A DNA stretch of 40,016 nt, taken from NCBI GenBank assembly GCA_964633605.1, contig CAZWGF010000002.1, positions 1 to 40,016 on the forward strand. Reading direction: 5' to 3'. The notes beneath the pieces are model-generated. The model worked only from the letters and a program-made list of their open reading frames with translations. It was not told the DNA's origin and did no database searches. The stretch's first letter is position 1, and the number at the start of each line of letters is the position of its first letter. This document shows, piece by piece, positions 10,256-37,880 of the stretch. A program made the translations under genes and the position numbers. Origin of the DNA: Candidatus Woesearchaeota archaeon (GTDB taxonomy: Archaea; Nanobdellota; Nanobdellia; Pacearchaeales; GW2011-AR1).

Positions 10256-13141
10256 CTATGTCCCACCTTTTTGGGATAAAACCATGCTTACTTTATGAAA
10301 TGTTATTGTTCTACTCACCGCCCCACCACTTAATCTTTCAACCCATAATTCCACAGTGTCATTCGCTGCAACATCAATTATTCCAACACCACCAGTATTC
10401 CCGATTGTCTGATTCCCAGCAGTATCTCTATGAGCGGATGTGCATGGGAAATCAACCGTTCCGTTATTGGTATGAACGTGGAAATCGTATTCAATAGACA
10501 CTGCTGATGTCTGTGAGAAGTCAATGCTGATAATGACTTCGTACCTACCTGCCTTAACTATAGTAATATGATCGTTCGTGTGATCCGGCGTAGCGTTGTT
10601 GCTTTCACCATCTATACTAAATGCCGTTACTTGATAAAATGTGTCTTGGGCAGCAAGGGCCAAAGTACTGACTCCATCCTCATCGTAGATTTGAGCGAAA
10701 GGCAAACCTGATGCCCCGACAAATACTATATTCCCAGTACTATCCAACAAGCAATAATTTGTATTATCGTCACCAATCTTTGCGGAACCAACAACTTGCA
10801 AAGTTTCATCTGGCGTTGTCGTCCCAACCCCGACCTTGCCGTCAGCGGTTACTCTCATATGCTCTGTTGTACTTCCATCAGGGCTGAAATAAGTCTCAAA
10901 GCCCATTCCTACTCTCGCCCCATTTGTCAATTCCGTAACGCTGGTAATCCTTCCGCCAATCCCGTCTGCTGCCGAACCGTCATTAGATCCAAATAATAAT
11001 TGCGAGTTAACTTCCCCTATACTTGTTACTGTATTTTTGCCACCCTCAACCTTTATCGTCCCTGTTACACTATCTGCGGCCTTTACGTGCAATAGTTCCT
11101 CTGCACTCCCAGTACCAATCAAGACATTGCCATCTGCATCCACACTAACAGCAGGATTCGGCGTGCCATCAGATGCAGACAATTCAGAATGCCGGTGCAG
11201 GGCGTCTACCATGGAATCGTTAACCAGGGTTGTGTATGGCGACAGCATTGCGAGTATGATCGAGCCCGCTGCATTGGTTACGCCTATCTCGCTCGCCGTC
11301 CCTGTAATTGTCGCCAGGACAGGATCGACGCCTGTAGAACCTATGGGTAGCTGCCCGTTCGTCGCCTGGGCTAAGACTGTAACATCTCCAGTACCAGAAC
11401 CAACCATCAACCCGCCATCTGTCAACGTTGCAAGGCCAGTACCACCAGAGGTTACGTCAAGCGGATCTCCAAGGACAAGAGTGTCGTCTATCCAGGCTTT
11501 ATTGCCCACTTCAAGGTCATTTTCCACAGCCAAGTCAGCCAAAGAGTCCAGGCCGTGGGGGGAGGTGTAGCTGGCGGAGGTGGCCACTACTTGGTGGTTA
11601 GAGCCTACGGCGTTGGACTCTGTTCCTGTTCCAGAATTATAAATCGAGTCTATTTCGGCTTGAGACAATGCTTTGTTGTAAATACGAACATCATCTATAC
11701 TACCGTCAAAATAGTTGCCCGGCGAGGCGTCCTCTTGTCTTCCGATGGATAAATTATCAATAGTATCTAAAGCGTTATTTATGACATTTGTTCCAACTGA
11801 TATACTATCAACAAACAACTCTCTATCTGTGAGAGAGCTAAACACTCCTACAATGTGGTGCCAGCTTCCATCGTTATAAGTGCCACTAGATGCTATTGAA
11901 CTAGTATTAGTGGTGTTAAGTTGCCATCGTAAATAAGCAAAGCCTCCTGATATAATTTCAATACCGTATTTTGAATTAGCGGAGTTGTTTCCTTGCGACA
12001 ATACAGCGCTAGTTCCTCCATCTGTCGTTTGTATCCAAGCAGCAAAACTGAATGGCAACAAACTTTGTTTTGCACCATTTATATTAACAGAATCACTACT
12101 TCCATTAAACGTCAGAGCCTCATTGATCTTTCCGGCTGTCGTCAATGCAGATGTGTTCTGTTGAGCAGTTCCGTCGTTCGCACCTTGCGTGTCAATAACA
12201 TTGGTAGTGGCAAGATTGTCGTTCATCTTCCACTGTGACACCAGGCCAGAGATAGGCCCAGACGTCGACGTCACCCCGCCCAGGAAGGCCTGCTGGGAAA
12301 CATAAAGGTCGCCGCTAACTGTTGCATCATTCGTGACAGTCAGATCGTTTCCAACGGAGGCGTCAGTCGTGATCGTTAGGTTATCGAAGGTCGGGCTTGC
12401 TCCCGTGTGAATATCCTGGGGCAATGCCAGGGTAATACTGCCCGCTGCATTTGTTACTGTGACCTGGTTTATTGCCCCGATGAGGACAGCCAATACCGGA
12501 TCAGCCCCCGTCGAGCCTATGGGCAACTGCCCGTTCGTCGCCTGGCCAAGGACCGTTACAGGGGCCGCACCGGACCCCAGGACAATGCCGCCATCCGTCA
12601 ATGAAGCGGCACCCGTCCCGCCCTTGCTGACAGCGAGCGGATCCACTATGCCAATCTTGACAGTCCCATCACCAACGTCAGTAACGCTAATTTCCAAATC
12701 GGTCCCGGCAATCCACTGCGTCAAATCATCGACCGAAGTGAGTTGCTTGTTTGCGTCAGTGGATGTAAGCCGGGATGCGGTCAGGCCGGATAATACCAGT
12801 CCGACAAGTGTTGCAATACCGGCGCTCGATAATGTGCTTTTTGTTGTCCAAGTGCCGGATTCTTTCAGTTGGATGAGGTACTCAGATGAGGATTCGCCGT
12901 TGAGCCTCCATGTGCCGTTGGGGTAATCGCCTGTCGCGTCCTTCTCGCCCAGATAGACAATGCCGCCTGGGATTATATCCAATAACAGGTTGATTCTTTC
13001 ATGGATGTCATGTATGCGGAACTCTTGCAGTTCACTTATCAACTCCGTGAGGTAATTGGCAAGCTCTTTCGGATCTCCACTTGTGATAGCTGGCACATCC
13101 AAAGGCAGCCTAACTTGCTCATCTAGTTTTTCGATTGACAT
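10256..13141 (-). CDS. tail fibre with internal LamG/ConA-like lectin domain
   Basis: ORF track gives 10256..13177. I prefer ATG 13141 (MSIEKLDEQ, AGAGGAA upstream). The LamG-like stretch is LTFNGSSDSVNI...FSFAAWIQ...SWHHIVGVF...DDVRIYNKALSQAEI. Two ~74-aa repeated modules flank it. Confidence 0.85.
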   Translation of the reverse strand: MSIEKLDEQVRLPLDVPAITSGDPKELANYLTELISELQEFRIHDIHERINLLLDIIPGGIVYLGEKDATGDYPNGTWRLNGESSSEYLIQLKESGTWTTKSTLSSAGIATLVGLVLSGLTASRLTSTDANKQLTSVDDLTQWIAGTDLEISVTDVGDGTVKIGIVDPLAVSKGGTGAASLTDGGIVLGSGAAPVTVLGQATNGQLPIGSTGADPVLAVLIGAINQVTVTNAAGSITLALPQDIHTGASPTFDNLTITTDASVGNDLTVTNDATVSGDLYVSQQAFLGGVTSTSGPISGLVSQWKMNDNLATTNVIDTQGANDGTAQQNTSALTTAGKINEALTFNGSSDSVNINGAKQSLLPFSFAAWIQTTDGGTSAVLSQGNNSANSKYGIEIISGGFAYLRWQLNTTNTSSIASSGTYNDGSWHHIVGVFSSLTDRELFVDSISVGTNVINNALDTIDNLSIGRQEDASPGNYFDGSIDDVRIYNKALSQAEIDSIYNSGTGTESNAVGSNHQVVATSASYTSPHGLDSLADLAVENDLEVGNKAWIDDTLVLGDPLDVTSGGTGLATLTDGGLMVGSGTGDVTVLAQATNGQLPIGSTGVDPVLATITGTASEIGVTNAAGSIILAMLSPYTTLVNDSMVDALHRHSELSASDGTPNPAVSVDADGNVLIGTGSAEELLHVKAADSVTGTIKVEGGKNTVTSIGEVNSQLLFGSNDGSAADGIGGRITSVTELTNGARVGMGFETYFSPDGSTTEHMRVTADGKVGVGTTTPDETLQVVGSAKIGDDNTNYCLLDSTGNIVFVGASGLPFAQIYDEDGVSTLALAAQDTFYQVTAFSIDGESNNATPDHTNDHITIVKAGRYEVIISIDFSQTSAVSIEYDFHVHTNNGTVDFPCTSAHRDTAGNQTIGNTGGVGIIDVAANDTVELWVERLSGGAVSRTITFHKVSMVLSQKGGT
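11243..11464 (-). repeat. fibre repeat module, copy 2 (aa ~572-645)
   Basis: PLDVTSGGTGLATLTDGGLMVGSGTGDVTVLAQATNGQLPIGSTGVDPVLA... Shares an exact 19-mer CTGCCCGTTCGTCGCCTGG (11351-11369) with copy 1 (12527-12545). Confidence 0.85.
12419..12640 (-). repeat. fibre repeat module, copy 1 (aa ~180-253)
   Basis: PLAVSKGGTGAASLTDGGIVLGSGAAPVTVLGQATNGQLPIGSTGADPVLA... In-frame paralogue of 11243-11464. Confidence 0.85.
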
Positions 13142-13625
13142 ACTGCTTACGTTCCTCTTCCACTGTTTTCCAAACACAGCAAAACGTTTTTCCTAGCATG
13201 GCACCAATGGCTTCATAACTACAGCCAGCAATGCGGAGTAGAACGATACGCCTTGCCCTCTGCGTGCATGTGTTGAGAAAGTTGTTAATGTCGTCTACGT
13301 CATCGTATGTGTAGCGGGGTTTACGTGCTTGTAAGTGTATGGTTTGGTCAGTTTCATCAAACGCATCCAAGTAGACATACTTCACGTTATGAGTACGTGT
13401 TGCCGACCTGGGCTTGCCCACAATGTATTGCCGCATTGACCTAATGGCAATCGTTCCTACCATTTTATCTGAGCTATCCTTGGGTAGTCGTTTGACAGAG
13501 TTAAGCCAGGCCTCATTCACGAGTTCATCCACTTGGATTAACCCTACGCTATGACTGTTATTCAGGGTGTACTGTGCACATCGTCGCATTATCGAAAGCC
13601 AGTTGTCGTTCCATGTTTTTGTCAT
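13119..13625 (-). CDS. ECF-like sigma factor / region-4 HTH transcription regulator
   Basis: ORF track gives 13119..13661. ATG 13625 forms an ATGA overlap with the upstream stop. Region-2-like ELVNEAWLNSVKRLPKD...IAIRSMRQYI and region-4-like RARRIVLLRIAGCSYEAIGAMLGKTFCCVWKTVEE. Confidence 0.5.
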   Translation of the reverse strand: MTKTWNDNWLSIMRRCAQYTLNNSHSVGLIQVDELVNEAWLNSVKRLPKDSSDKMVGTIAIRSMRQYIVGKPRSATRTHNVKYVYLDAFDETDQTIHLQARKPRYTYDDVDDINNFLNTCTQRARRIVLLRIAGCSYEAIGAMLGKTFCCVWKTVEEERKQYVNRKTR

Positions 13626-15229
13626 GGGTTTATGTGTCCTGCCGGCTCCATCTCCAGCCATGTTGCATGGATGACCGGAAGATTTGCCTTGGCATCATTT
13701 GAGAACTCGATCTGATGGGTGTCACCTGTCTCGCCTCCAGCGTGTAACGTCTCCCAGTGCTTATCGCTGTTTCCTGTGCAGGTAATGGTCTGCGTCTTAT
13801 ATGCTGTACTGCTGGTATTCTTGTACAGCTTGACATCGAAGCTGGCCGTCGCTGATGTGTCCACGAGGACCGCAACTCGGCCCAATGAGCATCGTTTGCC
13901 GATCTTATTGAACGGGTTCAGCCTGGCCGATGCCGCCTTAAAATCGTACTTAACGTCATTATCAGATGTGCCTGTGAACATTCGCCACAACCATCCGTCA
14001 CGCCCGCCATAGACGGGAAACCAGGCCTTTTCACTGATAACATCGAGGCCGCCGGCAATAGGCATCTCGGCCAGCGTGGCACCATCTGTGGCGTATGCTG
14101 CGTCGGCGTCGTCCCATTGCGGCATTGCAGCCCCGTTGTACATCGCAAGTGCGTGCACCGGGAACTTATGGATTGCCCAGACTTTGTCCGTGATGCCGTA
14201 CTCTAGTATCCTGTCGGGATAGGTAGAGCCTGTCGCTGCAAAGGTGATATAGACCCGCCTATTTGTGCTGTCAAACACCCCCCAACTGTATTTTAAGGCA
14301 CTCCATTCAAACTGTGCGAGGATGTTGTTCAGGTTCGGCAGGTTCATTCTCTTGACTTCATAGCCGTCAAAATACAATAGGTCCTTGTGGCCTACCGTCA
14401 TCATGCCCTTGTCGAAGGGGATGCACACGCCAGGCGTTTGGCTGCCCAGATCCCCCCGGATGTAATCAAACCTAAACGGAATTGCAGTAGAGCCGCTCGG
14501 GCGCAGCATGTGTAGGGAGTTCTCGAACCAGATATAGATATACCGACCCAACCGCATACCTGCGACGGGCTTGTCGTCGGACTGGACATCGAGGTAGTTG
14601 CCATCCTGGAAGCTCGGCGTTTCGCCCCATGCAAGCGTCTGGCTGTAGCGTAGGCGGTAGGGTCTGTACGTGCCATCATCCACAATATCAAATGCCAGGA
14701 AGCGGTCACTAAGGAAGAATAGCATGTGAGCCGTGTTCATCTTCGCGCCCGATGTGGCATGTGTCGTCAGGTCCATGGCCGATACCGCCGTGGGTACGGA
14801 CGGTTCAAAGGCATCACCATCGAACATGTACATTGTGTCCTGAAAGTTGGTCATGTAGGTTTTGCCGTGGAGTGTCATGAAATTGAACAGATCCGCAGCC
14901 CCGCCCGAAAAGATATCACTACCGCCGCTGACATCCAACATAGCTGTTGTTTCGGGCGAGTAGACATTTGGCCTGGCCGTATCACAAGCGAGCAGGAAAT
15001 GCTGATTCTTAGACGAATGGGTCCACAGGCCGGTAATCGTCGTCGTCTGAACCGCCCCGCCGTGGTTCATCTGTGCGAGGTGAGCAGATCCGGCCCGCTT
15101 GGATAGGATGCCATCAATGCAACGGGCATTCTCCAGAGTCACGAAAGCATCCTCGGGAGAGATCCACGGTTCCTTTGTGGTTTGGAAACCCGTACTGTAA
15201 TTCGATATTAAAAATCCTTTGTAAGCCAT
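13622..15229 (-). CDS. tail structural protein (nozzle/tubular-type, beta-propeller-like; function tentative)
   Basis: 535 aa with repeated blade-like segments (YMFDG, YIYIWFENS, LLYFDGY, RVYITFAA, WLWRMF). Placed between a beta-helix protein and the fibre gene. Confidence 0.7.
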   Translation of the reverse strand: MAYKGFLISNYSTGFQTTKEPWISPEDAFVTLENARCIDGILSKRAGSAHLAQMNHGGAVQTTTITGLWTHSSKNQHFLLACDTARPNVYSPETTAMLDVSGGSDIFSGGAADLFNFMTLHGKTYMTNFQDTMYMFDGDAFEPSVPTAVSAMDLTTHATSGAKMNTAHMLFFLSDRFLAFDIVDDGTYRPYRLRYSQTLAWGETPSFQDGNYLDVQSDDKPVAGMRLGRYIYIWFENSLHMLRPSGSTAIPFRFDYIRGDLGSQTPGVCIPFDKGMMTVGHKDLLYFDGYEVKRMNLPNLNNILAQFEWSALKYSWGVFDSTNRRVYITFAATGSTYPDRILEYGITDKVWAIHKFPVHALAMYNGAAMPQWDDADAAYATDGATLAEMPIAGGLDVISEKAWFPVYGGRDGWLWRMFTGTSDNDVKYDFKAASARLNPFNKIGKRCSLGRVAVLVDTSATASFDVKLYKNTSSTAYKTQTITCTGNSDKHWETLHAGGETGDTHQIEFSNDAKANLPVIHATWLEMEPAGHINP

Positions 15230-19031: not shown

Positions 19032-19634
19032 TTACCATCTTGCATGTGCGTAGAGTGTCGTTGCGGCCTCGAATGTGGTCGCAATCACAATGACCTTTCG
19101 CCAACCTTTCATATTGACTCTGTAGATTGCCATTCTGTCCGTGGCGCTATCAAGAACAGAATCATCGTCGATAAGAACCCCGTTCGATGCTGTCACGACA
19201 ATAGTATCCACAAAGAAGTTGCTGACTGTCGCTTGCTGCTTACCGCCCGTAAGGGTAAGGATTGCCCCGAGGGTGAATTGATCCTCAGTTGGGCCATCGG
19301 CCAAGTACTGTGCGACGGCAACCCATATTTCAATCACATGTGCATCTGCATCAGCCTTGGTCTCAAGCCGGATATCAACGAATGGGGCAAGCTGTGGAAC
19401 ATCCCACTGAATTGTCTTGGCATCCGTCAAAGCTACCATTGTGGCCCAATCGCGTGCCCCGACCGCTGGCGTTGCCTGTGATGCTGTCAGATTGCCTATA
19501 TCCGTCCATCTTGTGGTTGGACCGCCATCTAGTACCGGCTGAATTATGTCGCCTGACCGGGTTCTCTGAAAGCCGTAGATTAAGGGCAATACTAAAAGCC
19601 CTATGACGGCCATTGTTTGTAGGGTTTTTTTCAT
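19032..19634 (-). CDS. exported protein, unknown function
   Basis: 200 aa. MKK + TMAVIGLLVLPLIYGF hydrophobic N-terminus, beta-rich body, C-terminal ...LYAHARW. Confidence 0.75.
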   Translation of the reverse strand: MKKTLQTMAVIGLLVLPLIYGFQRTRSGDIIQPVLDGGPTTRWTDIGNLTASQATPAVGARDWATMVALTDAKTIQWDVPQLAPFVDIRLETKADADAHVIEIWVAVAQYLADGPTEDQFTLGAILTLTGGKQQATVSNFFVDTIVVTASNGVLIDDDSVLDSATDRMAIYRVNMKGWRKVIVIATTFEAATTLYAHARW

Positions 19635-19654
19635 CGTACTGCCTTTCTAATTTT

Positions 19655-19684
19655 GGCGGGGGGGTGCGTCCAGCCACCGGGCCG
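19655..19684. repeat. 30-nt exact inverted-repeat copy A (partner 36553-36582)
   Basis: + strand reads GGCGGGGGGGTGCGTCCAGCCACCGGGCCG, the exact reverse complement of the + strand at 36553-36582. Checked base by base against ORF-track anchors. Intergenic here. Confidence 0.9.
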
Positions 19685-19705
19685 TAATGAAGGAGGAGAG
19701 GATTG

Positions 19706-19990
19706 TTAGTCTGGAATCACAGCAATGATCGCGTCCGTTGACATACCCACATAGCTGGTCCCGTCGATTTCCACTTCGTCACTCATTTCTTTAACAAAAA
19801 CAACATGGTCGTAGTACTCATACTCAGGCACGACTTCCTCGCCTGGTTCACATGGTTCAGGATCATTTCCGTTGTTTGACTTCAACAGCAGCGGGCTCAT
19901 GTGGCATGTATGCTGTGCTATTCGACCAATATTGTTCTTGCCTTCGTCCAAAGTGACGAGCAGTCTACTTCCTAGCAGTTTTGGTTCCAT
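19706..19990 (-). CDS. GroES/Cpn10-like small protein (tentative)
   Basis: 94 aa. PKLLGSRLLVTLDE at the N-terminus and DHVVFVKEMSDEVEIDGTSYVGMSTDAIIAVIP at the C-terminus parallel GroES IRPLHDRVIVK... and GDIVIF...ID(G/N)EE(Y/V)L(I/M)...DILAV. Confidence 0.6.
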   Translation of the reverse strand: MEPKLLGSRLLVTLDEGKNNIGRIAQHTCHMSPLLLKSNNGNDPEPCEPGEEVVPEYEYYDHVVFVKEMSDEVEIDGTSYVGMSTDAIIAVIPD

Positions 19991-20000
19991 GTCGCACCTG

Positions 20001-21017
20001 TTATTCTGAGGTAGCTATAAACGGAACTTGGTCCCATGTGTCTGTCCCGCCAGAAGCGGCCTGCGTGTTGTTTAAGGCTCGCACAAGGTTGAAGTCGTAG
20101 CCAGCGGTTGACGTATCGCAATCCACTTCGGTGAAGGCCTTATTTCCGAATATCCAGAAGTCGTCGCTTTCGTCGTCAATCCATAACCCAGACGATATGA
20201 TAGTGTTATACGCAATAATGGATTGAGCAATCACCGTTTCGTCAACATTGACTCCAATGGCACCGTAGAGAAGGTTGTTGGTGATTTGGATATTCGTCGG
20301 CCCTGTAGTGTCGTTGGGTATTTCGATTGCAGATGACGAGAAGTTCGTTCCGTCGGGGGAGCCAAATTCGCAGCCATCTACGACCAGCCAACCACATTCA
20401 GAAGCTTCAAGACCAACAGTTGCCGTGCCATTAGCCTGAATCAGACACCCATGGAACTCAAGACCCGCCTGCCCGTCTACGTCCCACACCTCAGCCGCCT
20501 GGTCGCCATAGAACTGCATGTTGTACCACCGGCAAGAGGGCGTGGCCGTTGTGCTTGGGATTATATGGTTCCCGACAATCGCACATCTATCATAGGGGTT
20601 GTTGTTGCCCAGCCCAATAATATCCGTTTTTTGCGCCATCAACACAAGATCCTCAGTGAGCGTGTCGCCAATGCAGTATATTGTGTTTCTCGCCGCCCAC
20701 TTTCTATAGGAACTCACCGCCATATCCGCGTGAGACGCAGCCAGGGCGGCAGACAGGGTTGTAAAAGCGTCGTCCCAAGATGCTCCATTGCCGGCGGTGC
20801 TCTTATTGCCGTCAACGTAATAGACTCGGCCACTGGGATCTGCCCCGCTATTGAAGGCGGTCGCATCTTCAAGGCCTCCGATATGATCACGCAGATACCT
20901 TTCCAGGGAACGGGGATTCGTCACTGTGTCGTATCTCAATGGGTACGTCCCCAAAGCCGCGAGGGCCGGGGACACGATCATACTTAGGATGAACATGACT
21001 ACTACGAGTCGTTTCAT
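20001..21017 (-). CDS. secreted right-handed beta-helix protein (polysaccharide lyase/hydrolase-like)
   Basis: MKRLVVVMFILSMIVSPALA-A is a clear Sec signal. PbH1-like repeats follow (CLIQANGTATVGLE, VVDGCEFGS, IQITNNLLYGAIGVNV, AYNTIISSG). Confidence 0.8.
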   Translation of the reverse strand: MKRLVVVMFILSMIVSPALAALGTYPLRYDTVTNPRSLERYLRDHIGGLEDATAFNSGADPSGRVYYVDGNKSTAGNGASWDDAFTTLSAALAASHADMAVSSYRKWAARNTIYCIGDTLTEDLVLMAQKTDIIGLGNNNPYDRCAIVGNHIIPSTTATPSCRWYNMQFYGDQAAEVWDVDGQAGLEFHGCLIQANGTATVGLEASECGWLVVDGCEFGSPDGTNFSSSAIEIPNDTTGPTNIQITNNLLYGAIGVNVDETVIAQSIIAYNTIISSGLWIDDESDDFWIFGNKAFTEVDCDTSTAGYDFNLVRALNNTQAASGGTDTWDQVPFIATSE

Positions 21018-23745: not shown

Positions 23746-24588
23746 CTATGTTTTGTCGAACCTCCCAGCCAATACGTCGCGCTCGTGCGCATCAAATTCG
23801 TTGTCTGCCATTGCTGCAACGTTTGCATTTGTATTAACCGCACCATCACCACCAACCGCCGCTGCTGATCCGGGCTGTAGCCGGGCTGTAGCCGAGTTTT
23901 CGGCATATGCCTGGGCCGCTGTTTGGCCTGCTGCATTGGGCGGGGGCGGGGTGTTTGCTGTGGCTAACTGCATTTCTTGCTTGGCTATTTGATACGCAAC
24001 GTCCTTTGCGCTTATTTCGTTTGGCTGCTGCTTAATCCACTGGACTAAGGCAGGGTTCTTGGTGATTGCTGATTTCATGTGTTCTGACATTGTTAATTGG
24101 CCGGTCGTTGGATCGACCTGGCCTACTACTTGTGCGTAATCTTGGTGTGTAGCGTCAAACAATCTTTGCTCTACACTCTGGAAACGTTCGTTATACGTTT
24201 TCCGCAATTCCGCATCACGGGCTCTGGCTGCCTCCAGGGGGACATAATCGTAACCATCCCATTCGCTGTAGGGATCTTCCTCTGTCGCCGCCTGGGGTGC
24301 GGGCTGTGCTGCGGTAGGCTGCTGTGGGGTTGCGGCCATCATCTGCACTTGCTGCTGCAGTTGCTGGTAATTGGCTTTAAGTTCCGCATTTTCTTGCTGG
24401 GTCTGCTGGAGTTGTTCGTTCACATCGACCTGCGGTTCCTGCGGTGCATTTGCGTCAGTGGCGGGCTGAGCGGGGGTATCGCCGTTGGTTTGGTCAGGAG
24501 CAACCTGATCTTGCACCGGGTTGGGTTGGCCAGTGGCGGGCTGTGCTGAGGTATCGCCGTTTGCCAGTTGATCGTTGATTTCTGCCAT
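23746..24588 (-). CDS. scaffolding protein (putative)
   Basis: 280 aa, Q/A/P-rich and helical, between the portal-proximal small genes and the capsid gene. Internal duplicate NGDT(S/P)AQPAT. Confidence 0.65.
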   Translation of the reverse strand: MAEINDQLANGDTSAQPATGQPNPVQDQVAPDQTNGDTPAQPATDANAPQEPQVDVNEQLQQTQQENAELKANYQQLQQQVQMMAATPQQPTAAQPAPQAATEEDPYSEWDGYDYVPLEAARARDAELRKTYNERFQSVEQRLFDATHQDYAQVVGQVDPTTGQLTMSEHMKSAITKNPALVQWIKQQPNEISAKDVAYQIAKQEMQLATANTPPPPNAAGQTAAQAYAENSATARLQPGSAAAVGGDGAVNTNANVAAMADNEFDAHERDVLAGRFDKT

Positions 24589-25461: not shown

Positions 25462-27483
25462 CTATTTCAGTGCTTTCTGTCTGCGTCTACGACCTTTTGT
25501 GCTTTGCTTCTTGTCGTTGGCAGTTGTCTGGCTCGCCTGGCTCAAGGCTGCCTGGGTCTGGGCCCGCATTAGCTCGACCTTGGCCTTTCGCTCTGCCAGG
25601 TCCATGAGTTGCTCATTGTTGAGGTTCAGCAGCTCTCCGGCGGTCTGTGCGTTCTTGAGTGCCACGGAGGACTTATTCACCTGGATGTCTGAGATGTCCT
25701 CGCGGGCCCTGGCCACCTTGGCTGCTGTCTCGGCCTGAACAAGCTTATTGATCTGCTCTTGCTCTTGTTGCTGCTTTTGGGCCGCCTGGTCACGCTGCTG
25801 CTCACGCTGCTTGATACGTGCCATGAACTGCGGTTTCTTCTGAAGGTTTGAGGACTCTATGATGTCGCTAATGGTAATGACTTCTGCTGCGTCAGGATAC
25901 AAGCTGCGAATCTCTGTCAATTCACGCATGTTTGACTGCTGCTGGTTCTCTGTAAGAAGCCCCTCGGTAGGATTGCAGTCGTAATAAATCATATCATCTG
26001 CGTAAAACTCTTTGACCGGCATCTCGTTAATCATTCGTTGTACGCGGATCGGGTCTTGCCATATCTGATTAAGCCTGGCCTGTTTCCTTCCGACCTGCTG
26101 TTTGGCTATCCTGAAGCCCTCAAATAGTCCCTGGTGTCCGGTCAAGGCCTGGCCGGTCCTGTGGCGGCTTAGGATCGCTGGGATGTCGCCGGTATCAGTA
26201 CCGAAGATTTCCTCATTCATCCCGCCAACGTCGGTTTCCTCTTTGTCCATGAGTGTCAGCATCTGGAAGAATCCGGGCGGAATGTCCGGGGTCGGTGCCT
26301 GCCAAAACGCATCCGTTAGCTGGCCCTCGAAGTCATCTCGCACCTCGATAACCTTGCCTTGACCAGACTGGAAAACGTCCTTGGGGTTCTTTAGGGAGCC
26401 CTCTTTGTACAGCCGGTAGGTGGTCAACTGGGATTCAACGATGTCGATTGTCTGATTGATCCTTCTGTTGCGTGCCTTCTGGGGATCCCTAAGAATCCTC
26501 ACGAAAGACTGAAGCTTGAGTTCTTCGCGGTCCATCTCACTGACCCACTCACCGGGGAACCACACGACGTTGTAGTCGTCAAGGGCCAGCGGGTTTATAT
26601 CGTTCCACACGGGTTCGCTGTCCACGTAGATGGTAAGCTTAACCTTGTTTATCGGCTTCTTGAACCGGCTGAGTGCTGGGGTGCCGTTCGGGAGTTTTGC
26701 GTTTGCGATCAGGAATTCGACTCTGTTCTTGTCGCCGTGCCGCTTTACCAATTCCTTGAATGGTATCTCCTGGGCGGTCAATCGGCTAATGATGGTATCC
26801 TCAAAAGTTGTCTCTCGCCGCCAATATTCCTCGTACAACCGCATTTTTTGCTGTCTGGCATATCCGTGGTTGTGATTGTAGTCCCACCTTTGCGTGCCCT
26901 GGCCGTGCGGGATCTTATTGATGTCGTCTGCATTCTCGGGAAGGAGCTGCAATGCCGTCGATTCGTGCATGTACCGGCCTGTTTGGTAGTAGGTGCAGTC
27001 GCTTAGATCCGTAAAGGTCAGGGCCGGATCCAGCAGGAATTGATTGTAGGCCAGGCGGGCGTACCGGAAAAAGCCGAGACGGTCCCGGTGAATCTCCATG
27101 AGATTGCTGCCAGAAACTAATTGGCCCATCTTGAAGCAGTCTGACATGACGCCATAACCGCCGAATAATGACATTTGCTGCGTGATGAGTGCTGTATGCT
27201 GCCGTGCGGATTCGTTGTCCTCACTGCCAATGGGAGACATCTTCAGGATGTGCCGGTTGCGGATCTCATAGCCCGACAACAGCTTTACCTGCCGTTTCGT
27301 CTTGTTGATTACATAGATCGGCCTGCCGGTGCGCCTCGCAAACTCTTCGTCGTCCTTGCTGTTCTGTGCGCCCAGGTACATCTCGGTATCGACGGCGCCC
27401 TCGTCCAGGAAACCGCTCCATCCTTGCCGGGCAAAGTCGTATCTGTCCTCTCGCTCCGATTTAAGGTCATTCATCTCTGACAT
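25462..27483 (-). CDS. portal protein
   Basis: 673 aa directly after TerL (TGA 27487, AAGGTG RBS, ATG 27483). Size and position are typical. Long helical Q/A/K-rich C-terminal tail (about the last 110 aa), like barrel-bearing portals. Confidence 0.85.
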   Translation of the reverse strand: MSEMNDLKSEREDRYDFARQGWSGFLDEGAVDTEMYLGAQNSKDDEEFARRTGRPIYVINKTKRQVKLLSGYEIRNRHILKMSPIGSEDNESARQHTALITQQMSLFGGYGVMSDCFKMGQLVSGSNLMEIHRDRLGFFRYARLAYNQFLLDPALTFTDLSDCTYYQTGRYMHESTALQLLPENADDINKIPHGQGTQRWDYNHNHGYARQQKMRLYEEYWRRETTFEDTIISRLTAQEIPFKELVKRHGDKNRVEFLIANAKLPNGTPALSRFKKPINKVKLTIYVDSEPVWNDINPLALDDYNVVWFPGEWVSEMDREELKLQSFVRILRDPQKARNRRINQTIDIVESQLTTYRLYKEGSLKNPKDVFQSGQGKVIEVRDDFEGQLTDAFWQAPTPDIPPGFFQMLTLMDKEETDVGGMNEEIFGTDTGDIPAILSRHRTGQALTGHQGLFEGFRIAKQQVGRKQARLNQIWQDPIRVQRMINEMPVKEFYADDMIYYDCNPTEGLLTENQQQSNMRELTEIRSLYPDAAEVITISDIIESSNLQKKPQFMARIKQREQQRDQAAQKQQQEQEQINKLVQAETAAKVARAREDISDIQVNKSSVALKNAQTAGELLNLNNEQLMDLAERKAKVELMRAQTQAALSQASQTTANDKKQSTKGRRRRQKALK

Positions 27484-34366: not shown

Positions 34367-35041
34367 TCACTTCGGCTGTATCTCCAATAGACCATACTTG
34401 TCACTCTCTGCCCGAATACGTTTCTCGGCCAACTTTATGTACTCTGGATTTAGTTCGCATCCCACATAATCTCGGTTGTTCTGGTAGGCCACCATGGCGG
34501 TTACTGCTGTTCCCATGAACGGTTCAAGGGTTATCCCCGGCCTAAAGCCTGCGTTGCATTTGCAGCGGGTCCAGCCGGTGGTTTCTGCTGGTGCAGCGTC
34601 CAGGTGTGGCTGTGTTCCATTGGGAAGTCTTGTTTGGCCACTGTTGGGCCTACTTGGGACAATGCCCTTCTCTACGGCATGTTCGTTCATCTGCCGCCAA
34701 GACTCGTCTTTGACTTTCTCGTATGTCGATTGCCCTGTTTTCTCGATTATCCTGCTCCTGGGTTCCCCGCACTCCACGCATACCTCTTTGGGGCACCCGG
34801 CCAGGATGCAGGGCAGGATCAGGGCAGGAGGAAAAGTGGCGAAGTGGCTTGACTCCTTGGTGTTTATGTTGTATAATGCACATTTACAATCTTCTTCTGG
34901 AAAGGATTTGTATGAAGACTTGTCAACAATGCGAAAAATCATTTGACCCAAGAAACGAACGTCCATCACATCCGGCCAAGTATTGCTCTCGAACATGCTC
35001 GCACATGGCCCAGACAACCCGTGTGAAATTAACCTGTTCAC
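34367..35041 (-). CDS. degenerate N6/N4 DNA methyltransferase-like protein lacking the catalytic (D/N/S)PPY half
   Basis: GTG 35041 overlaps the helicase TGA (GTGA). HFATFPPALILPCILAG, a Cys4 insert (CVECG...CKC), EPFMGTAVTAMVA and GCELNPEYIKLAEKRI match the C-terminal part of beta-class MTases. No DPPY-type motif occurs anywhere in the ORF. Confidence 0.6.
   Translation of the reverse strand: MNRLISHGLSGPCASMFESNTWPDVMDVRFLGQMIFRIVDKSSYKSFPEEDCKCALYNINTKESSHFATFPPALILPCILAGCPKEVCVECGEPRSRIIEKTGQSTYEKVKDESWRQMNEHAVEKGIVPSRPNSGQTRLPNGTQPHLDAAPAETTGWTRCKCNAGFRPGITLEPFMGTAVTAMVAYQNNRDYVGCELNPEYIKLAEKRIRAESDKYGLLEIQPK
34849..34877 (+). promoter_or_regulatory. near-consensus sigma70-type promoter pointing rightward
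   Basis: TTGACT (34849-54), a 17-nt spacer, then TATAAT (34872-77). Followed by GGAAAGGA and ATG 34912. Confidence 0.5.
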
Positions 35042-35322
35042 AATATCGCCCCTACCTCTTTCCAACGAAGCTCACTCTTGATCCAGTTGAACCCGATCCC
35101 CAGACGCGCACCAGGGCCGTTAGAAACCTTCAAAACATGCCACACAGCATTAAGCTCGGCAGTATCAGACATCAAACAACCGCTAAACTGCACCCTAAAC
35201 TCTTTAACCTTCTTCAACTGCTCAATCCAGATCACGCACTGCGAAAACTTGCCATACGCACGGCCACCAGCAATATCATCAATGTCAACGGCACCCCGAG
35301 CCACCTTACCCCGAGGATGTGA
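34912..35322 (+). CDS. candidate Zn-ribbon ORF antisense to the MTase-like and helicase genes
   Basis: Reads MKTCQQCEKSFDPRNERPSHPAKYCSRTCSHMAQ... (CxxC-x17-CxxxC with a YCS..C motif). Has its own promoter and RBS. The first in-frame stop is only at 35322, so the last 285 nt are antisense to the genuine helicase C-terminus. The real extent is unclear. Confidence 0.3.
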   Translation: MKTCQQCEKSFDPRNERPSHPAKYCSRTCSHMAQTTRVKLTCSQYRPYLFPTKLTLDPVEPDPQTRTRAVRNLQNMPHSIKLGSIRHQTTAKLHPKLFNLLQLLNPDHALRKLAIRTATSNIINVNGTPSHLTPRM

Positions 35323-36942
35323 CACGAACAGAATAGAGCAGTTGTACTTCGAGGCAATACGCTTGACACCCATCACCAAGTCACGGTCCAATTCAAACAC
35401 CTTGCCCCCCTTTGTGTCCAAAGCCGTTACAGGATCGACACAGATCACACGGCGACCAGAACGAGCTTGAGCCCCTATCCACGCCAAAAGATCACTATGC
35501 GTCATGTCAGACTGCTCGTACCCGATCACCATGCGACGCCCGATACCCTCCAAAATTGAAGCATCCTCAACAGCAAACGAACGGGCCAAAGCATTGTTCT
35601 CAGCGTCCTCCAACCACCGAGGATTGAACAAATTAGAGTCCCGACGGATCATGGCTGACAATCGAGACAAATGCCAGTACCGCTCGTGCTCCAGCCATAA
35701 ACACACATAATCTACACCAAGTTCCTCCCAGTGCATCATACACTGCAACAACGCAAAAGACTTGCCCTCACCAGGCTTGGCACCAATGATCGTCAACGTA
35801 CCAGGACACAACGGCAAGCACGTTTCATTCAAAGAACTAAACGGAACGTCAATAGCACGCATCGAACCAGAAATAATACGGTCCAAATAGCCCAATCGAA
35901 CCGCTAAATCGCCCAACCGTATGGCCTCAGACTTCACCTTAGCCAACAACATCGGCCAAGACCGGGGGTCACTATCTCCCAAATAATCGCCAACGTCCCA
36001 CTTCGGACCCGATGCACCCGCAACAACAGGATCTACACGAAACAAAGTGCAACCCAATCCCTCCAAATGACGACCCACAGCGTCCATGTGCGATGAACCA
36101 ACGTCATCATTGTCCGGCCATAAATATACCACCTTCCCAGACAACAAAGACCAGTCCGTCTTCCGCCCTTGCCAACTGTATTCGCCCGATTCAGATAAAA
36201 CACCAGCGCCACCAGCAGATGTAGTACCACATAAACCGGCAGCTATCAGTAAATTCGCACACTTCTCGCCCTCAACTACCCATACCTCGTCACTACCTCG
36301 AACGACTGACTCATTGTATACAGGAAATGGACCCGAAGGTGCACCCAAACACCAACCTCCAATAACTTCGCCGTTGGTGCCCTTAAGCTCACCAAACTTG
36401 CACTGTAAATAACGCTTGCCAATCTTGCCTGAAGAATCGTCACAACGAATTATCCCCAAATATGGAGCATTCCCCCTATTATAGATGTAGAAACTTCGGA
36501 AATTTTTAATTCTACGCTTTAGCTGGGCCAAGGGTATGTATGATGGGGTAGTCGGCCCGGTGGCTGGACGCACCCCCCCGCCCCCGCCCCCCCCCTCTCT
36601 GGTCCGCGCGATCGTGTCGCCGCTGTCCGGGCCGGCAGGTGTAGCTGCGACCGAGCCTGGCTGGCCGGCACTACGGTACAGCTCCTGCACGGTGCAGCCC
36701 CTGGCCCGAGCAAGTAGGTCCACCACATCACCCGACACGCCGCACTTGGCTCGGAAGCAGTAGGACCGCCAATGCCCAGTGCCCGACGCCTGGATCCACG
36801 CCGAGCGGTCATGGTCCGGGCAGTACGGGCAGTCAAACCCGTCACCAGCCCAGCGCAGGTCCTTATCCGTGGCATCATTGAGGACACGCACCAAAGCCGA
36901 GCGGTCCGTGGTTGATGGTAATGTATCGGATGTCACGGCCAT
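35038..36942 (-). CDS. bifunctional primase-helicase (Zn finger + Toprim + DnaB-like)
   Basis: ORF track gives 35038..37005. ATG 36942 has a GAGGGTG RBS. Motifs: CPYCPDH...FRAKCG zinc finger, Gly7 linker, Toprim VWVVEGEKCANLL and LWPDNDDVG, Walker A GAKPGEGKSF, Walker B RVICVDPV, DnaB-like LKVSNGPGARLGIGFNW. Confidence 0.9.
   Translation of the reverse strand: MAVTSDTLPSTTDRSALVRVLNDATDKDLRWAGDGFDCPYCPDHDRSAWIQASGTGHWRSYCFRAKCGVSGDVVDLLARARGCTVQELYRSAGQPGSVAATPAGPDSGDTIARTREGGGGGGGVRPATGPTTPSYIPLAQLKRRIKNFRSFYIYNRGNAPYLGIIRCDDSSGKIGKRYLQCKFGELKGTNGEVIGGWCLGAPSGPFPVYNESVVRGSDEVWVVEGEKCANLLIAAGLCGTTSAGGAGVLSESGEYSWQGRKTDWSLLSGKVVYLWPDNDDVGSSHMDAVGRHLEGLGCTLFRVDPVVAGASGPKWDVGDYLGDSDPRSWPMLLAKVKSEAIRLGDLAVRLGYLDRIISGSMRAIDVPFSSLNETCLPLCPGTLTIIGAKPGEGKSFALLQCMMHWEELGVDYVCLWLEHERYWHLSRLSAMIRRDSNLFNPRWLEDAENNALARSFAVEDASILEGIGRRMVIGYEQSDMTHSDLLAWIGAQARSGRRVICVDPVTALDTKGGKVFELDRDLVMGVKRIASKYNCSILFVSHPRGKVARGAVDIDDIAGGRAYGKFSQCVIWIEQLKKVKEFRVQFSGCLMSDTAELNAVWHVLKVSNGPGARLGIGFNWIKSELRWKEVGAIL
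36553..36582. repeat. 30-nt exact inverted-repeat copy B (partner 19655-19684)
   Basis: + strand reads CGGCCCGGTGGCTGGACGCACCCCCCCGCC. Lies inside the primase ORF (coding strand encodes GGVRPATGP). Confidence 0.9.
36573..36595 (-). repeat. G9-C-G5-C-G7 tract on the coding strand (Gly7 linker)
   Basis: + strand is C7 G C5 G C9, counted from the sequence and consistent with the seven-Pro run in shadow ORF 36536..36763. Confidence 0.9.
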
Positions 36943-37880
36943 ACACCCTCGACAGCAGCCTCGGCCAGCAGTGCGAGCACATCGACGGCCGGGTAGGCCT
37001 TGCATCGAGCTGCCCAGTCCACGTCTTCGTCGTGGTAGTCAGGATCCACGTCCTTGCCGGGCAGCAGGCCCCACAGTTTCAGAGCCGCCAGCATCCGCTT
37101 GCACTCTCTGGGCGTGAAGTACTGGAGGTGTGTACGCAGGAAGCGGGCGATGATTGGATGAACGTCCTTCACGGTGATCGGGTCATCTGGCGGGAACCGG
37201 CGGTAGGCTATCAGGTCGACCATTATGTCAGACGCAGTGTACTCTGACGACTCGCTTGGTCGTTCACATCCAGGTAGGTGGCTCGTATCCCCCCAATCGT
37301 CTGAATCATGGGTTTTCTGGTCTCTGTCTCCTTCTTTATTCTCTTTCTCCCTCTCTAATCTCGATTCACCCGGAGAATCCTTGTTTTCCTGGTTCCCCGA
37401 GTTCTTCCCCTTTTGTGTATTCTTCCTATCGTATGATAAGTTAGGTTGCTTTGGGTGTAGAGGCCACTTTGGGGTCGACACTTTGCCGTATGCCTTGCAC
37501 ACGAAGTGTTGGCAGTACCTGAGCATGACCAAGGGGTTATTATTGATATCAACGGCGTGTTCTGTGGGCACATACCGCTCGATCATGCCAGCCTCTTCGA
37601 GTTCATCGTTCAGTCTTTGCACGTCCCCAGGCTCTACTTTAGTGTGTGCGGCCGGGTTGATTCTGATGTAGAGCTGTAGGTATATCTCCGTGCAATCAGC
37701 CGTGTAGTTGCCCCACTTATCCAGTAGTGTCAGGAGCCGGAAGTAGTGGGCTTGGGCCAGTGGTGATACTCCCGCCAGTGCGTGCGACAGCAGGATCGGC
37801 CGGTGCAGTGGCACGAAGTCCGCCGTGTATTGGGGCATGTATCTCTGGTCCTGGTTGGGTTGTGGCTCTATCGTTGGCAT
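36933..37880 (-). CDS. replisome-organizer / DnaD-like winged-helix protein (tentative)
   Basis: ORF track gives 36933..38054. ATG 37880 has AGGAG 8 nt upstream. FVPLHRPILLSHALAGVSPLAQAHYFRLLTLLDKWGNY resembles the N-terminal domains of phage replication organizers. Central K/E/N-rich linker. Confidence 0.6.
   Translation of the reverse strand: MPTIEPQPNQDQRYMPQYTADFVPLHRPILLSHALAGVSPLAQAHYFRLLTLLDKWGNYTADCTEIYLQLYIRINPAAHTKVEPGDVQRLNDELEEAGMIERYVPTEHAVDINNNPLVMLRYCQHFVCKAYGKVSTPKWPLHPKQPNLSYDRKNTQKGKNSGNQENKDSPGESRLEREKENKEGDRDQKTHDSDDWGDTSHLPGCERPSESSEYTASDIMVDLIAYRRFPPDDPITVKDVHPIIARFLRTHLQYFTPRECKRMLAALKLWGLLPGKDVDPDYHDEDVDWAARCKAYPAVDVLALLAEAAVEGVWP

What the first reader, a model, noticed from the sequence alone, without database searches (positions are those of the whole stretch)
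19655..19684. 30-nt perfect inverted repeat joins an intergenic site at 19.66 kb to the primase linker at 36.55 kb
CGGCCCGGTGGCTGGACGCACCCCCCCGCC lies on the + strand at 36553-36582. There it is inside the primase-helicase ORF and antisense to it. Its exact reverse complement lies at 19655-19684, in the gap between the 94-aa and 200-aa genes, so there it reads in the sense of the leftward operon. I see no similarity in the flanks on either side. A 30-nt exact match is far beyond chance in 40 kb.

Possible explanations:
- a module-exchange or recombination linker;
- a binding site for a phage or host protein;
- a substrate for inversion of the intervening 16.9-kb head + packaging + replication block;
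- an assembly artefact. 30 nt equals k-1 for k=31 de Bruijn assemblers, so a chimeric join has to be excluded.
Basis: seen in the sequence. Interest (0 to 1): 0.65.

Follow-up and report, generated by a model that had tools for sequence, protein, structure and literature searches.

The report
Primase fragment overwrote a phage stem-loop
A real 30-base inverted repeat in an Antarctic lake phage most likely records one copying accident that replaced a conserved intergenic RNA hairpin with sequence antisense to the phage's own primase gene, and whether it now regulates anything is untested.

Summary
The 30-nt perfect inverted repeat (19655-19684 and 36553-36582) is real and far beyond chance. It is not an assembly artefact. 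Both contexts recur with identical flanks in 19 contigs (11 intergenic, 8 primase) from k=141 MEGAHIT, JGI and Logan assemblies of several Ace Lake samples. One 45-kb contig carries both copies at the same 16,868-nt spacing. No inverted junction was seen and no recombinase gene is present.

The new finding concerns the intergenic copy. Eight distinct relatives, and three phages that share the 94-aa gene, have a stable GC-rich stem-loop at that position (-17 to -31 kcal/mol in the eight relatives folded). In relatives of the 200-aa gene it lies between a CU-rich motif and the ribosome-binding site. In this phage the 30-mer fills that slot exactly but does not fold.

The primase copy encodes GGGVRPATGP, the end of a Gly7 tract in an unusually long zinc-finger to TOPRIM linker, at a sharp GC step.

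Best reading (about 0.55): one ectopic, microhomology-guided copy event between the hairpin slot and the G-rich linker, direction unresolved.

Consequences: the hairpin is lost, and the late mRNA leader becomes perfectly complementary to primase mRNA (30 bp, -79 kcal/mol). An adaptive antisense role is possible (about 0.2) but untestable here, because the population is clonal and relatives lack this primase.

The parts
19655..19684 (-). Intergenic copy of the 30-mer. On the - (mRNA) strand it reads CGGCCCGGTGGCTGGACGCACCCCCCCGCC. It fills the slot that holds a GC-rich stem-loop in all relatives examined.
   Evidence: Slot homology: alignment A3. It does not fold (-9 kcal/mol, z +1.0 alone; whole gap -12.9, z +0.6).
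36553..36582 (-). Primase copy. On the - (mRNA) strand it reads GGCGGGGGGGTGCGTCCAGCCACCGGGCCG and encodes GGGVRPATGP (residues 142-151 of the 655-aa ORF, 121-130 of the 634-aa called protein). These are the last three Gly codons of a Gly7 tract plus VRPATGP.
19635..19705 (-). 71-nt intergenic region between the 94-aa and 200-aa genes. It runs stop codon, CU-rich motif, 30-mer, A-rich spacer, ribosome-binding site.
19689..19701 (-). CU-rich motif CCTCTCCTCCTTC upstream of the slot. A similar CU-rich tract lies there in seven of the eight relatives; in L035 it sits in the hairpin loop.
19642..19647 (-). GAAAGG, the putative ribosome-binding site of the 200-aa gene, 7 nt before the ATG. It is conserved in the closer relatives.
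19032..19634 (-). 200-aa gene downstream of the slot. The protein has an N-terminal hydrophobic helix and a beta-sandwich body. Function unknown.
19706..19990 (-). 94-aa gene upstream of the slot. It has a weak GroES-like C-terminal similarity and is part of a 338+94-aa cassette that differs from the 509-543-aa gene of relatives.
35038..37005 (-). Primase-helicase gene with a zinc-binding domain, a long linker, a TOPRIM domain and a RecA/DnaB-like helicase. Gene callers start it at the ATG at 36942 (634 aa).
36553..36660 (-). GC-rich linker segment (72-80% GC) whose gene-sense 3' edge coincides with the edge of the 30-mer. In gene sense it contains G9-C-G5-C-G7. The linker is about 24 aa longer than in 10 homologues.

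Best explanation
The repeat is the footprint of one ectopic copying event. The mechanism would be either a replication template switch or break repair that used a distant sequence with microhomology as template.

The two partners were:
- a hairpin-forming intergenic slot in the late operon;
- the G-rich poly-glycine linker of the phage's own primase-helicase gene, 16.9 kb away.

I favour primase to intergenic region as the direction, by about 55:45. In that direction a single event explains both the 30/30 identity and the loss of the otherwise conserved stem-loop.

The copy became fixed in an essentially clonal phage population in Ace Lake. At the DNA level the two copies probably have no dedicated function.

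Two consequences follow. The stem-loop that relatives keep between these genes is gone; it may be a leaky terminator, an RNA-processing site or a structure that occludes the ribosome-binding site. The untranslated leader of the 200-aa gene on the late mRNA is now perfectly complementary over 30 nt to the primase-helicase mRNA.

Shown: the repeat, its reproducibility, the conserved hairpin slot, the loss of folding, and the complementarity. Inferred: the copying mechanism, its direction, and near-neutrality.
For: - **Copying, not convergence:** identity is exact (30/30), the boundaries are abrupt and the flanks are unrelated.
- **Conserved hairpin in relatives:** eight distinct relatives (44-82% identity in the 200-aa protein) have a stable hairpin at that position. 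It is followed by the ribosome-binding site and, in seven of them, preceded by a CU-rich tract; in L035 that tract is in the loop. The hairpin sequences differ but pairing is kept: -17 to -31 kcal/mol, z -2.0 to -4.5.
- **Same feature after 94-aa homologues:** three phages that carry only the 94-aa homologue also have a GC hairpin directly after it, by inspection of the sequence.
- **Lost here:** the window's slot has the same length (30 nt against 25-36) but does not fold (z +0.6 and +1.0).
- **Possible microhomology:** both ends of the 30-mer resemble the hairpin arms of relatives (CGGCCCGGTGG against GGCCGGGCGG; CCCCCCCGCC against CCGCCCGGCC).
- **Tolerant donor region:** in the primase gene the 30-mer lies in a non-conserved linker about 24 aa longer than in 10 homologues. 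It continues a native G-run and Gly7 tract and sits at a GC step.
- **No repeat family:** there are no other full or half copies in the window or in flanking contigs.
- **Not a common element:** no copies in IMG/VR, the JGI contig set or 185,579 species genomes.
- **Not an inversion system:** no recombinase gene and no inverted junctions in 19 contig contexts.
Against: - Neutrality is not demonstrated. The population is clonal (99.85-100% identity) and no relative carries this primase at 35-99% identity, so selection on the pairing cannot be tested.
- The copied tract coincides exactly with the hairpin cassette. That fits a functional replacement as well as a microhomology-limited patch.
- A hairpin kept by every relative was lost, yet the lineage was recovered from samples dated Nov 2013 to Oct 2014. 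This hints at compensation.
- A second exact complementarity (18 nt) between a late gene (portal) and the primase-helicase gene exists. It is marginally unexpected: 11 of 200 simulations produced any 18-nt inverted repeat.
- I found no documented example of a 17-kb-range templated patch in a phage.
Confidence: 0.55

Rival explanations
1. Adaptive trans-antisense control. The leader of the 200-aa gene on the late polycistronic mRNA pairs with the primase-helicase mRNA over 30 nt. The duplex blocks translation or is cut by a double-strand-specific RNase such as RNase III. This would shut down primase-helicase synthesis late in infection and also process the late mRNA at the place where relatives have a stem-loop.
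For: - All genes from 38054 down to 137 are on the - strand, so the two mRNAs carry complementary versions of the 30-mer.
- The perfect 30-bp duplex is worth -79.4 kcal/mol, and co-folding 141-nt and 140-nt contexts gains about -45 kcal/mol over the separate folds.
- The late-mRNA copy lies in an untranslated, otherwise unstructured gap.
- It replaces a conserved structured element exactly.
- The target stretch includes an in-frame GUG preceded by a G-run, in the linker where T7 gene 4 has the internal start of its short isoform. This comparison is from memory and is speculative.
- A second 18-nt complementarity links the portal and primase mRNAs.
Against: - There is no conservation or covariation evidence. 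Relatives keep a hairpin and carry other replication modules.
- There are no expression data.
- No discrete sRNA promoter or terminator is present.
- The 18-mer lies in conserved coding sequence of both genes with no sign of insertion and is only marginally non-random.
- A single clonal lineage cannot separate selection from hitch-hiking.
Confidence: 0.2
2. Both copies come from a third source. A small mobile or recombinogenic GC-rich element, REP- or MITE-like or a hairpin cassette exchanged between phages, would have landed independently in the intergenic slot and in the primase linker.
For: - The hairpin cassette differs completely between close relatives while its flanks stay conserved, which suggests frequent turnover of the cassette.
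- A 30-nt in-frame insertion would explain part of the extra linker length.
Against: - There are only two copies in more than 45 kb of phage sequence.
- The 30-mer, or a 20- or 22-nt core, is absent from IMG/VR, the JGI contig collection and 185,579 species genomes.
- The sequence is not palindromic and does not fold.
- The cassettes of relatives have no second copy in the DNA available for them.
Confidence: 0.08
3. The 30-mer is a recognition site, present twice, for a DNA-binding protein. Candidates are a promoter for the phage's ECF-sigma-like protein, an operator, or a replication or packaging site.
For: - Two identical 30-bp sites exist.
- The phage encodes a 180-aa ECF-sigma-like protein.
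Against: - There is no dyad symmetry and there are no further full or half sites.
- The orientations are opposite and one site is buried antisense in a coding region.
- Relatives have unrelated hairpin sequences in the same slot.
- By inspection there is no recognisable ECF-type -35/-10 pair at the right spacing.
Confidence: 0.07
4. The repeat is a substrate for inversion of the intervening 16.9 kb, either by a site-specific invertase or by homologous recombination through the ERF-type recombinase encoded just outside the window.
For: - A 30-bp perfect inverted repeat is close to the minimum length for homologous recombination (from memory).
- An ERF-family gene and a DUF3799 gene lie beyond the right end of the window (locus L012).
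Against: - Inversion would separate the zinc-binding domain from the TOPRIM-helicase part of the primase and reverse the head and packaging genes relative to the rest.
- No serine or tyrosine recombinase gene is in the window.
- All 19 contig contexts show parental junctions, and two long contigs share the window's arrangement.
Confidence: 0.05
5. The repeat is an assembly artefact, a k-1 = 30 overlap mis-join in a k=31 de Bruijn graph.
For: - Thirty nt equals k-1 for k=31.
- One Logan contig (L069; Logan's k=31 is from memory) starts inside the 30-mer, so the repeat or the adjacent G-run does break such graphs.
Against: - Both contexts, with identical flanks, occur in MEGAHIT k=141 contigs from many ENA samples, in JGI assemblies and in Logan contigs. 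A 141-mer spans the 30-mer plus both flanks, so each junction is present in single reads.
- The primase ORF reads through the copy in frame and joins domains that are fused in all homologues.
- A chimeric join would leave one copy, not two.
Confidence: 0.02

Closest known systems
Quasipalindrome or inverted-repeat template-switch mutagenesis (PMC7202029; PMC8604942)
   Same: A hairpin-forming sequence is the site of the change. Several bases change in one step. The new sequence is an exact copy, in inverted orientation, of another stretch of the same genome. G/C-rich microhomology lies at the edges.
   Different: The known cases switch between the two arms of the same hairpin, tens of bases apart, and make the hairpin more perfect. 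Here the template lies 16.9 kb away in a coding region and the hairpin is destroyed.
Ectopic gene-conversion patch by break repair through synthesis-dependent strand annealing (from memory)
   Same: Transfer is one-way, covers a short tract with sharp borders, leaves the donor unchanged and involves no crossover or inversion.
   Different: The usable homology is only a few bases. The event has not been observed, so donor and recipient cannot be assigned with certainty.
Antisense RNA control in phages, such as lambda OOP and P22 sar (from memory), and RNase III cleavage of sense-antisense duplexes
   Same: There is extended perfect complementarity to a phage mRNA, and a duplex long enough to be an RNase III substrate.
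   Different: The known phage antisense RNAs are transcribed from the opposite strand of the target locus (cis) and have their own promoter and terminator. Here the complementary stretch is embedded in a distant, co-directional late mRNA (trans). No discrete RNA, conservation or expression evidence exists.
Intergenic stem-loops in phage late operons, such as intrinsic terminators, attenuators and T7 RNase III sites (from memory)
   Same: Relatives have exactly such an element at this position: a GC-rich stem of 10-12 bp or more between two late genes, often followed by a U-rich stretch.
   Different: The window phage itself fails the defining feature, because no stable stem is present.
Invertible DNA segments such as Hin, Gin and Cin systems and shufflons (from memory)
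   Same: A pair of short inverted repeats brackets a DNA segment.
   Different: There is no recombinase gene, no dyad-symmetric site and no second orientation in the population. Inversion would disrupt an essential gene.

Membership tests
Intergenic stem-loop (terminator or processing hairpin) conserved in relatives | Stable GC-rich stem of about 10 bp or more at the slot upstream of the ribosome-binding site | tested here: not met
   Window slot: -9 kcal/mol, z +1.0; whole gap -12.9 kcal/mol, z +0.6. Relatives: -17 to -31 kcal/mol, z -2.0 to -4.5.
Intergenic stem-loop (terminator or processing hairpin) conserved in relatives | Same position and flanks as in relatives | tested here: met
   Alignment A3. 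The 30-mer lies between the CU-rich motif CTCCTCCTTC and TTAGAAAGG-N7-ATG, as the hairpins of L026, L021 and L033 do.
Invertible segment (site-specific invertase system) | Recombinase gene (serine or tyrosine) in or next to the segment | tested here: not met
   Pfam scans of 40 ORFs found none. A few short ORFs were not scanned.
Invertible segment (site-specific invertase system) | Both orientations present in the population | tested here: not met
   All 19 contig contexts are parental. L068 has the same arrangement and the same 16,868-nt spacing as the window. Reads were not examined.
Trans-acting antisense RNA regulation | Extended complementarity between regulator and target RNA | tested here: met
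   30/30 complementarity, -79.4 kcal/mol. The sense of each mRNA is inferred from gene orientation.
Trans-acting antisense RNA regulation | Complementarity conserved or covarying in related genomes | not testable with these tools
   The population is clonal. No primase relatives exist at 35-99% identity. Structural-module relatives carry a hairpin instead.
Trans-acting antisense RNA regulation | Both RNAs expressed together, with an effect on target level | not testable with these tools
   No transcriptome or experiment is available.
REP/MITE-like dispersed element | Many copies in the host or phage genomes, with a palindromic core | tested here: not met
   Two copies only. None in IMG/VR, the JGI contig set or 185,579 genomes. 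The sequence does not fold.
Phage-borne CRISPR mini-array or solitary spacer | Spacer-sized match flanked by direct repeats | tested here: not met
   The flanks ...cttcatta and aaaattag... share no repeat. No repeat family was found.
De Bruijn-graph assembly artefact | Junction seen only in small-k assemblies and not reproducible across samples or assemblers | tested here: not met
   k=141 MEGAHIT, JGI and Logan contigs from at least 10 samples reproduce both junctions.
Template-switch or ectopic conversion patch | Exact identity with abrupt borders to a second locus in the same genome | tested here: met
Template-switch or ectopic conversion patch | Microhomology between donor and the ancestral recipient at the tract borders | tested here: inconclusive
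   The hairpin arms of relatives (GGCCGGGCGG / CCGCCCGGCC) share GGCC and GCC with the ends of the 30-mer. The true ancestor is unknown and the composition is G/C-only.

The most novel reading that the evidence does not exclude
The phage has turned a terminator or stem-loop slot in its late operon into a built-in antisense cassette against its own replication gene.

- A 30-nt piece of the primase-helicase linker was captured in inverted orientation, so every late transcript carries a perfect anti-primase sequence.
- The piece spans an in-frame GUG preceded by a G-run, which might be an internal start.
- Pairing would trigger double-strand-specific cleavage. This would switch off primase-helicase synthesis and process the late mRNA at the position where relatives use a hairpin.
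- The 18-nt complementarity between the portal and primase genes would be a second, weaker contact of the same kind.
Probability: 0.15. Interest if true: 0.7.

Novelty: new variant of a known kind. Interest (0 to 1): 0.35.

Why it matters
- **If it is a mutational scar:** it is a clean natural example of a long-range (17 kb), 30-nt templated replacement of a hairpin in a phage genome, fixed in a wild population. It shows that short exact dispersed repeats in viral contigs can be real and need not be functional sites or mis-assemblies.
- **If the RNA pairing is used:** it would be an unusual way to make a regulator, by copying a fragment of the target gene into the leader of a late mRNA. It would be a trans mRNA-mRNA switch between the late and replication programmes of a phage.
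- **In either case:** comparison with relatives defines a conserved hairpin element upstream of the ribosome-binding site, usually preceded by a CU-rich tract, in an undescribed group of P22-portal-type phages from polar and saline waters.

Tried and rejected
**Searches that found nothing**
- INPHARED phages, megablast with 20 kb of the window: no match.
- The 30-mer in IMG/VR, a 22-mer core in the JGI metagenome contig collection, and the 30-mer and a 20-mer core in 185,579 species genomes: no match. The JGI collection evidently lacks the Ace Lake assemblies, so that negative result says little about this phage's own environment.
- Protein-guided search of IMG/VR with the primase and the 200-aa protein: nothing.
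- Rfam on the window and on five relatives: no family. No tRNA genes.

**Leads that went nowhere**
- A flank-anchored pattern (TCCTCCTTC...TTAGAAAGG...ATG) in IMG/VR returned three unrelated loci. In two of them (L027, L029) TCCTCCTTC is the reverse of a divergent gene's Shine-Dalgarno sequence.
- The hairpin cassettes of relatives have no second copy in the DNA held for them. Coverage of those genomes is partial.
- No other intergenic region of the window has a strong GC hairpin, so there is no hairpin family in this phage.
- Structure prediction of the 200-aa protein (pLDDT 85) gave only weak jelly-roll or beta-sandwich matches and no function.

**Ideas considered and rejected**
- A local terminator or hairpin formed by the 30-mer itself: it does not fold.
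- A promoter for the ECF-like sigma factor: no motif, and no conservation in relatives.
- A CRISPR mini-array: no flanking repeats.
- An attP core: there is no integrase gene, and an attP would be a single copy.

**Limit on inference**
- Population microdiversity as a test of constraint: the contigs are 99.85-100% identical to the window, so the test has no power.

Full report
**1.

The + strand carries CGGCCCGGTGGCTGGACGCACCCCCCCGCC at 36553-36582, and its exact reverse complement lies at 19655-19684. It is the longest repeat of any kind in the window. The next longest are a 19-nt direct repeat and an 18-nt inverted repeat. None of 100 dinucleotide-preserving shuffles gave a match, even with 3 mismatches allowed. 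In 200 order-2 Markov simulations of the window, only 11 produced any exact inverted repeat of 18 nt. The flanks are unrelated on both sides.

**2. It is not an assembly artefact, and the arrangement is fixed**

- Exact-protein look-ups recovered the intergenic context in 11 contigs (L001-L010, L067) and the primase context in 8 (L011-L016, L068, L070). All have identical flanks.
- These contigs come from MEGAHIT k=141 assemblies of several ENA samples, from JGI assemblies and from Logan.
- A 141-mer covers the 30-mer and both flanks, so each junction exists in single reads.
- Locus L068 is a slice of a 45-kb k=141 contig. It carries both copies in the same orientation with the same 16,868 nt between them.
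- No contig shows a recombinant (inverted) junction.
- One Logan contig (L069) begins inside the 30-mer. The repeat or the adjacent G-run therefore breaks small-k graphs rather than creating chimeras.
- Four of the JGI samples are Ace Lake, Antarctica, collected from 26 Nov 2013 to 21 Oct 2014 at 13-24 m (PMC7416419 supplement).
- All contigs are 99.85-100% identical to the window. The population is effectively clonal.

**3. The genome and the primase site**

The window is a tailed-phage genome fragment with almost all genes on the - strand.
- Recognised genes include a P22-type portal, large and small terminase, a major head protein (312 aa, phrog_1357), tail-fibre-like proteins, a DNA methylase and a Tad2-like protein.
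- No close relative exists in INPHARED or IMG/VR.

The ORF at 35038-37005 is a primase-helicase. It has a CHC2-type zinc-binding region, a TOPRIM domain (EGEK, WPDNDD) and a RecA/DnaB-like ATPase.
- In gene sense the 30-mer encodes GGGVRPATGP. This is the end of a Gly7 tract, written G9-C-G5-C-G7 in DNA, followed by VRPATGP. It lies in the linker between the zinc-binding and TOPRIM domains.
- That linker is about 24 residues longer than in ten homologues of about 30% identity and is not conserved.
- GC content jumps from 0.38-0.47 to 0.72-0.80 at the edge of the 30-mer (36552/36553) and stays high through the zinc-binding part.
- No primase between 35% and 99% identity exists among 5.8 billion proteins.

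**4. The intergenic site is a conserved hairpin slot, and here the hairpin is gone**

The 200-aa protein has a graded series of relatives at 38-82% identity. Contigs for them were fetched.

Eight distinct relatives (L026, L021/L032, L033, L031, L030, L024/L034, L035, L040/L041) share this layout: stop codon, a 25-36-nt GC-rich hairpin, an A/T-rich spacer, a GAAAGG-type ribosome-binding site and the ATG. A CU-rich tract (CTCCTCCTTC or similar) precedes the hairpin in seven of them and lies in its loop in L035.
- The hairpin sequences differ widely, for example GGTCGGGCGG/CCGCCCGGCC, GGGCGGTCGG/CCGACCGCCC and GAGCGTGGGG/CCTCACGCTC.
- Each still folds stably: -17 to -31 kcal/mol, z -2.0 to -4.5 against shuffles.
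- Three other phages share only the 338/341-aa plus 94-aa gene pair. By inspection they also have a GC hairpin directly after the 94-aa homologue, with a T-rich tail clearest in L066.

In the window the flanks are the same: ...ctctcctccttcatta and aaaattagaaaggcagtacgATG.
- The 30-mer fills the slot from edge to edge, but it does not fold. Alone it gives -9 kcal/mol (z +1.0), and the whole gap gives -12.9 kcal/mol (z +0.6).
- No other intergenic region of the window holds a strong hairpin.
- No Rfam family matches the window or the relatives.

The slot is also a mosaic junction.
- Upstream, the window's 338-aa protein shares only about 95 N-terminal residues (30% identity) with the 543-aa protein of L021, and the 94-aa gene is absent there.
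- Downstream, the 346-aa protein is 69% identical to its L021 counterpart.

**5. What the repeat is not**

- **Invertible segment:** no recombinase gene, no second orientation, and inversion would cut the primase gene.
- **Dispersed element:** only two copies, none in three public collections, and no palindromic structure.
- **Family of protein sites:** no further full or half sites beyond low-complexity C-runs.
- **CRISPR-like unit:** no flanking repeats.

**6. Origin**

Identity of 30/30 between otherwise unrelated contexts requires copying. The two loci share only G/C-rich character. The ends of the 30-mer resemble the arms of relatives' hairpins (CGGCCCGGTGG against GGCCGGGCGG; CCCCCCCGCC against CCGCCCGGCC). 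That would provide a few bases of microhomology at each border.

Hairpins stall replication and are break-prone. Template switching at inverted repeats is a documented source of multi-base changes (PMC7202029, PMC8604942), although the documented cases act within one hairpin.

I therefore read the repeat as one ectopic templated event between the hairpin slot and the primase linker. The direction is unresolved.
- **Primase to intergenic region (favoured, about 55:45):** one event explains both the identity and the loss of a hairpin that every relative keeps. The copy also starts in the middle of a native Gly7 tract.
- **Intergenic region to primase:** this would give a 10-codon in-frame insertion that lengthens the linker. 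It requires the hairpin to have decayed before the copy was made.

**7. Consequences and possible function**

Shown:
- The stem-loop is absent.
- On the - strand transcripts, the late-operon leader carries CGGCCCGG...CGCC and the primase mRNA carries its complement.
- The 30-bp RNA duplex is worth -79.4 kcal/mol. Co-folding 141-nt and 140-nt contexts gains about -45 kcal/mol over the separate folds.

Inferred:
- If both RNAs are present together they should pair.
- A perfect duplex of this length is a substrate for double-strand-specific RNases (from memory).

Whether this is exploited, for example to shut off primase-helicase late in infection while processing the late mRNA where relatives have a hairpin, cannot be tested here. 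There is no sequence diversity, no relative with the same primase and no expression data.

An 18-nt exact complementarity between the portal and primase-helicase genes (27135-27152 and 35499-35516) is suggestive. It lies in conserved coding sequence of both genes and is only marginally beyond chance.

**8. Verdict**

- The most likely explanation is a mutational footprint with side effects on RNA structure (confidence about 0.55).
- The most interesting reading not excluded is a self-derived antisense cassette (about 0.15-0.2).
- Relative to known kinds it is a new variant: a long-range templated replacement of a hairpin. It is not a new kind of system.
- Interest is moderate to low (0.35) unless RNA data show that the pairing is used.

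Noticed in passing
window 27135-27152 and 35499-35516: A second exact inverted repeat, 18 nt (AGCAGTCTGACATGACGC), links the portal gene to the primase-helicase gene, so these two mRNAs would also be complementary. It lies in conserved coding sequence of both genes and is present in all population contigs. Any 18-nt inverted repeat arose in 11 of 200 simulations.
   Followed up: partly
window 23938-23951 and 36576-36589: A 14-nt inverted match (GGGCGGGGGCGGGG) links the 280-aa scaffold-like gene to the G-run that overlaps the end of the primase 30-mer. It is low-complexity and probably chance.
   Followed up: no
window 36571-36605 (- strand): The primase linker contains G9-C-G5-C-G7, coding Gly7, followed by an in-frame GUG. 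Such runs are prone to slippage. The GUG with its G-rich upstream run could be an internal start giving an isoform without the zinc-finger domain, as in T7 gene 4 (from memory).
   Followed up: no
window 36440-36680: There is a sharp compositional step inside the primase gene, from 38-47% GC to 72-80% GC at 36552/36553. In addition, 35001-36500 has unusual strand skews (GC skew about -0.3, AT skew about +0.25). This suggests that the gene is a chimera of two sources or was recently acquired.
   Followed up: partly
window 39713-40016 (array continues beyond the window end; locus L012 5569-5930): An 18-nt tandem array of about 17 copies encodes a hexapeptide repeat (GNGVTL-like) in a + strand gene that starts near 39.66 kb. 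The window ends inside it, so the contig probably broke there.
   Followed up: partly
window 1-146: A GCCGTA-type repeat (periods 6, 12 and 24) encodes a Gly/Tyr/Asp-rich repeat (…GYGYGDGYGDG…) in a - strand gene that starts at about 146 and runs off the left end.
   Followed up: no
window 13119-13661 (-): A 180-aa protein with an ECF sigma-factor match (PF07638, E 1e-7) sits among the tail and structural genes.
   Followed up: no
window 30736-31254 (-): A 172-aa protein has a Tad2-like (Thoeris anti-defence 2) domain, E 1e-13.
   Followed up: no
window 19569-19634 (-) and alignment A2: The 200-aa protein has a 22-residue hydrophobic N-terminal helix (signal peptide or membrane anchor). This helix is missing from its closest relatives (72-82% identity) but present in more distant ones. 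The predicted body is a beta-sandwich with no confident structural match.
   Followed up: partly
window 19706-21017 compared with L021 8169-9800 and L064-L066: The genes upstream of the hairpin slot are a swapped cassette. The window has 338 aa plus 94 aa, as in L064/L065. The closest relatives by the 200-aa gene have a single 509-543-aa gene that shares only its N-terminal ~95 residues with the 338-aa protein. In L064-L066 the 200-aa homologue is absent.
   Followed up: partly
loci L019 and L020: Distant homologues (about 31% identity) of the primase-helicase lie in integrated elements next to a tyrosine integrase, beside PSCyt2/PSD1-domain genes. Those domains are typical of Planctomycetes (from memory). 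This may be a hint about the wider host range of this primase family.
   Followed up: no
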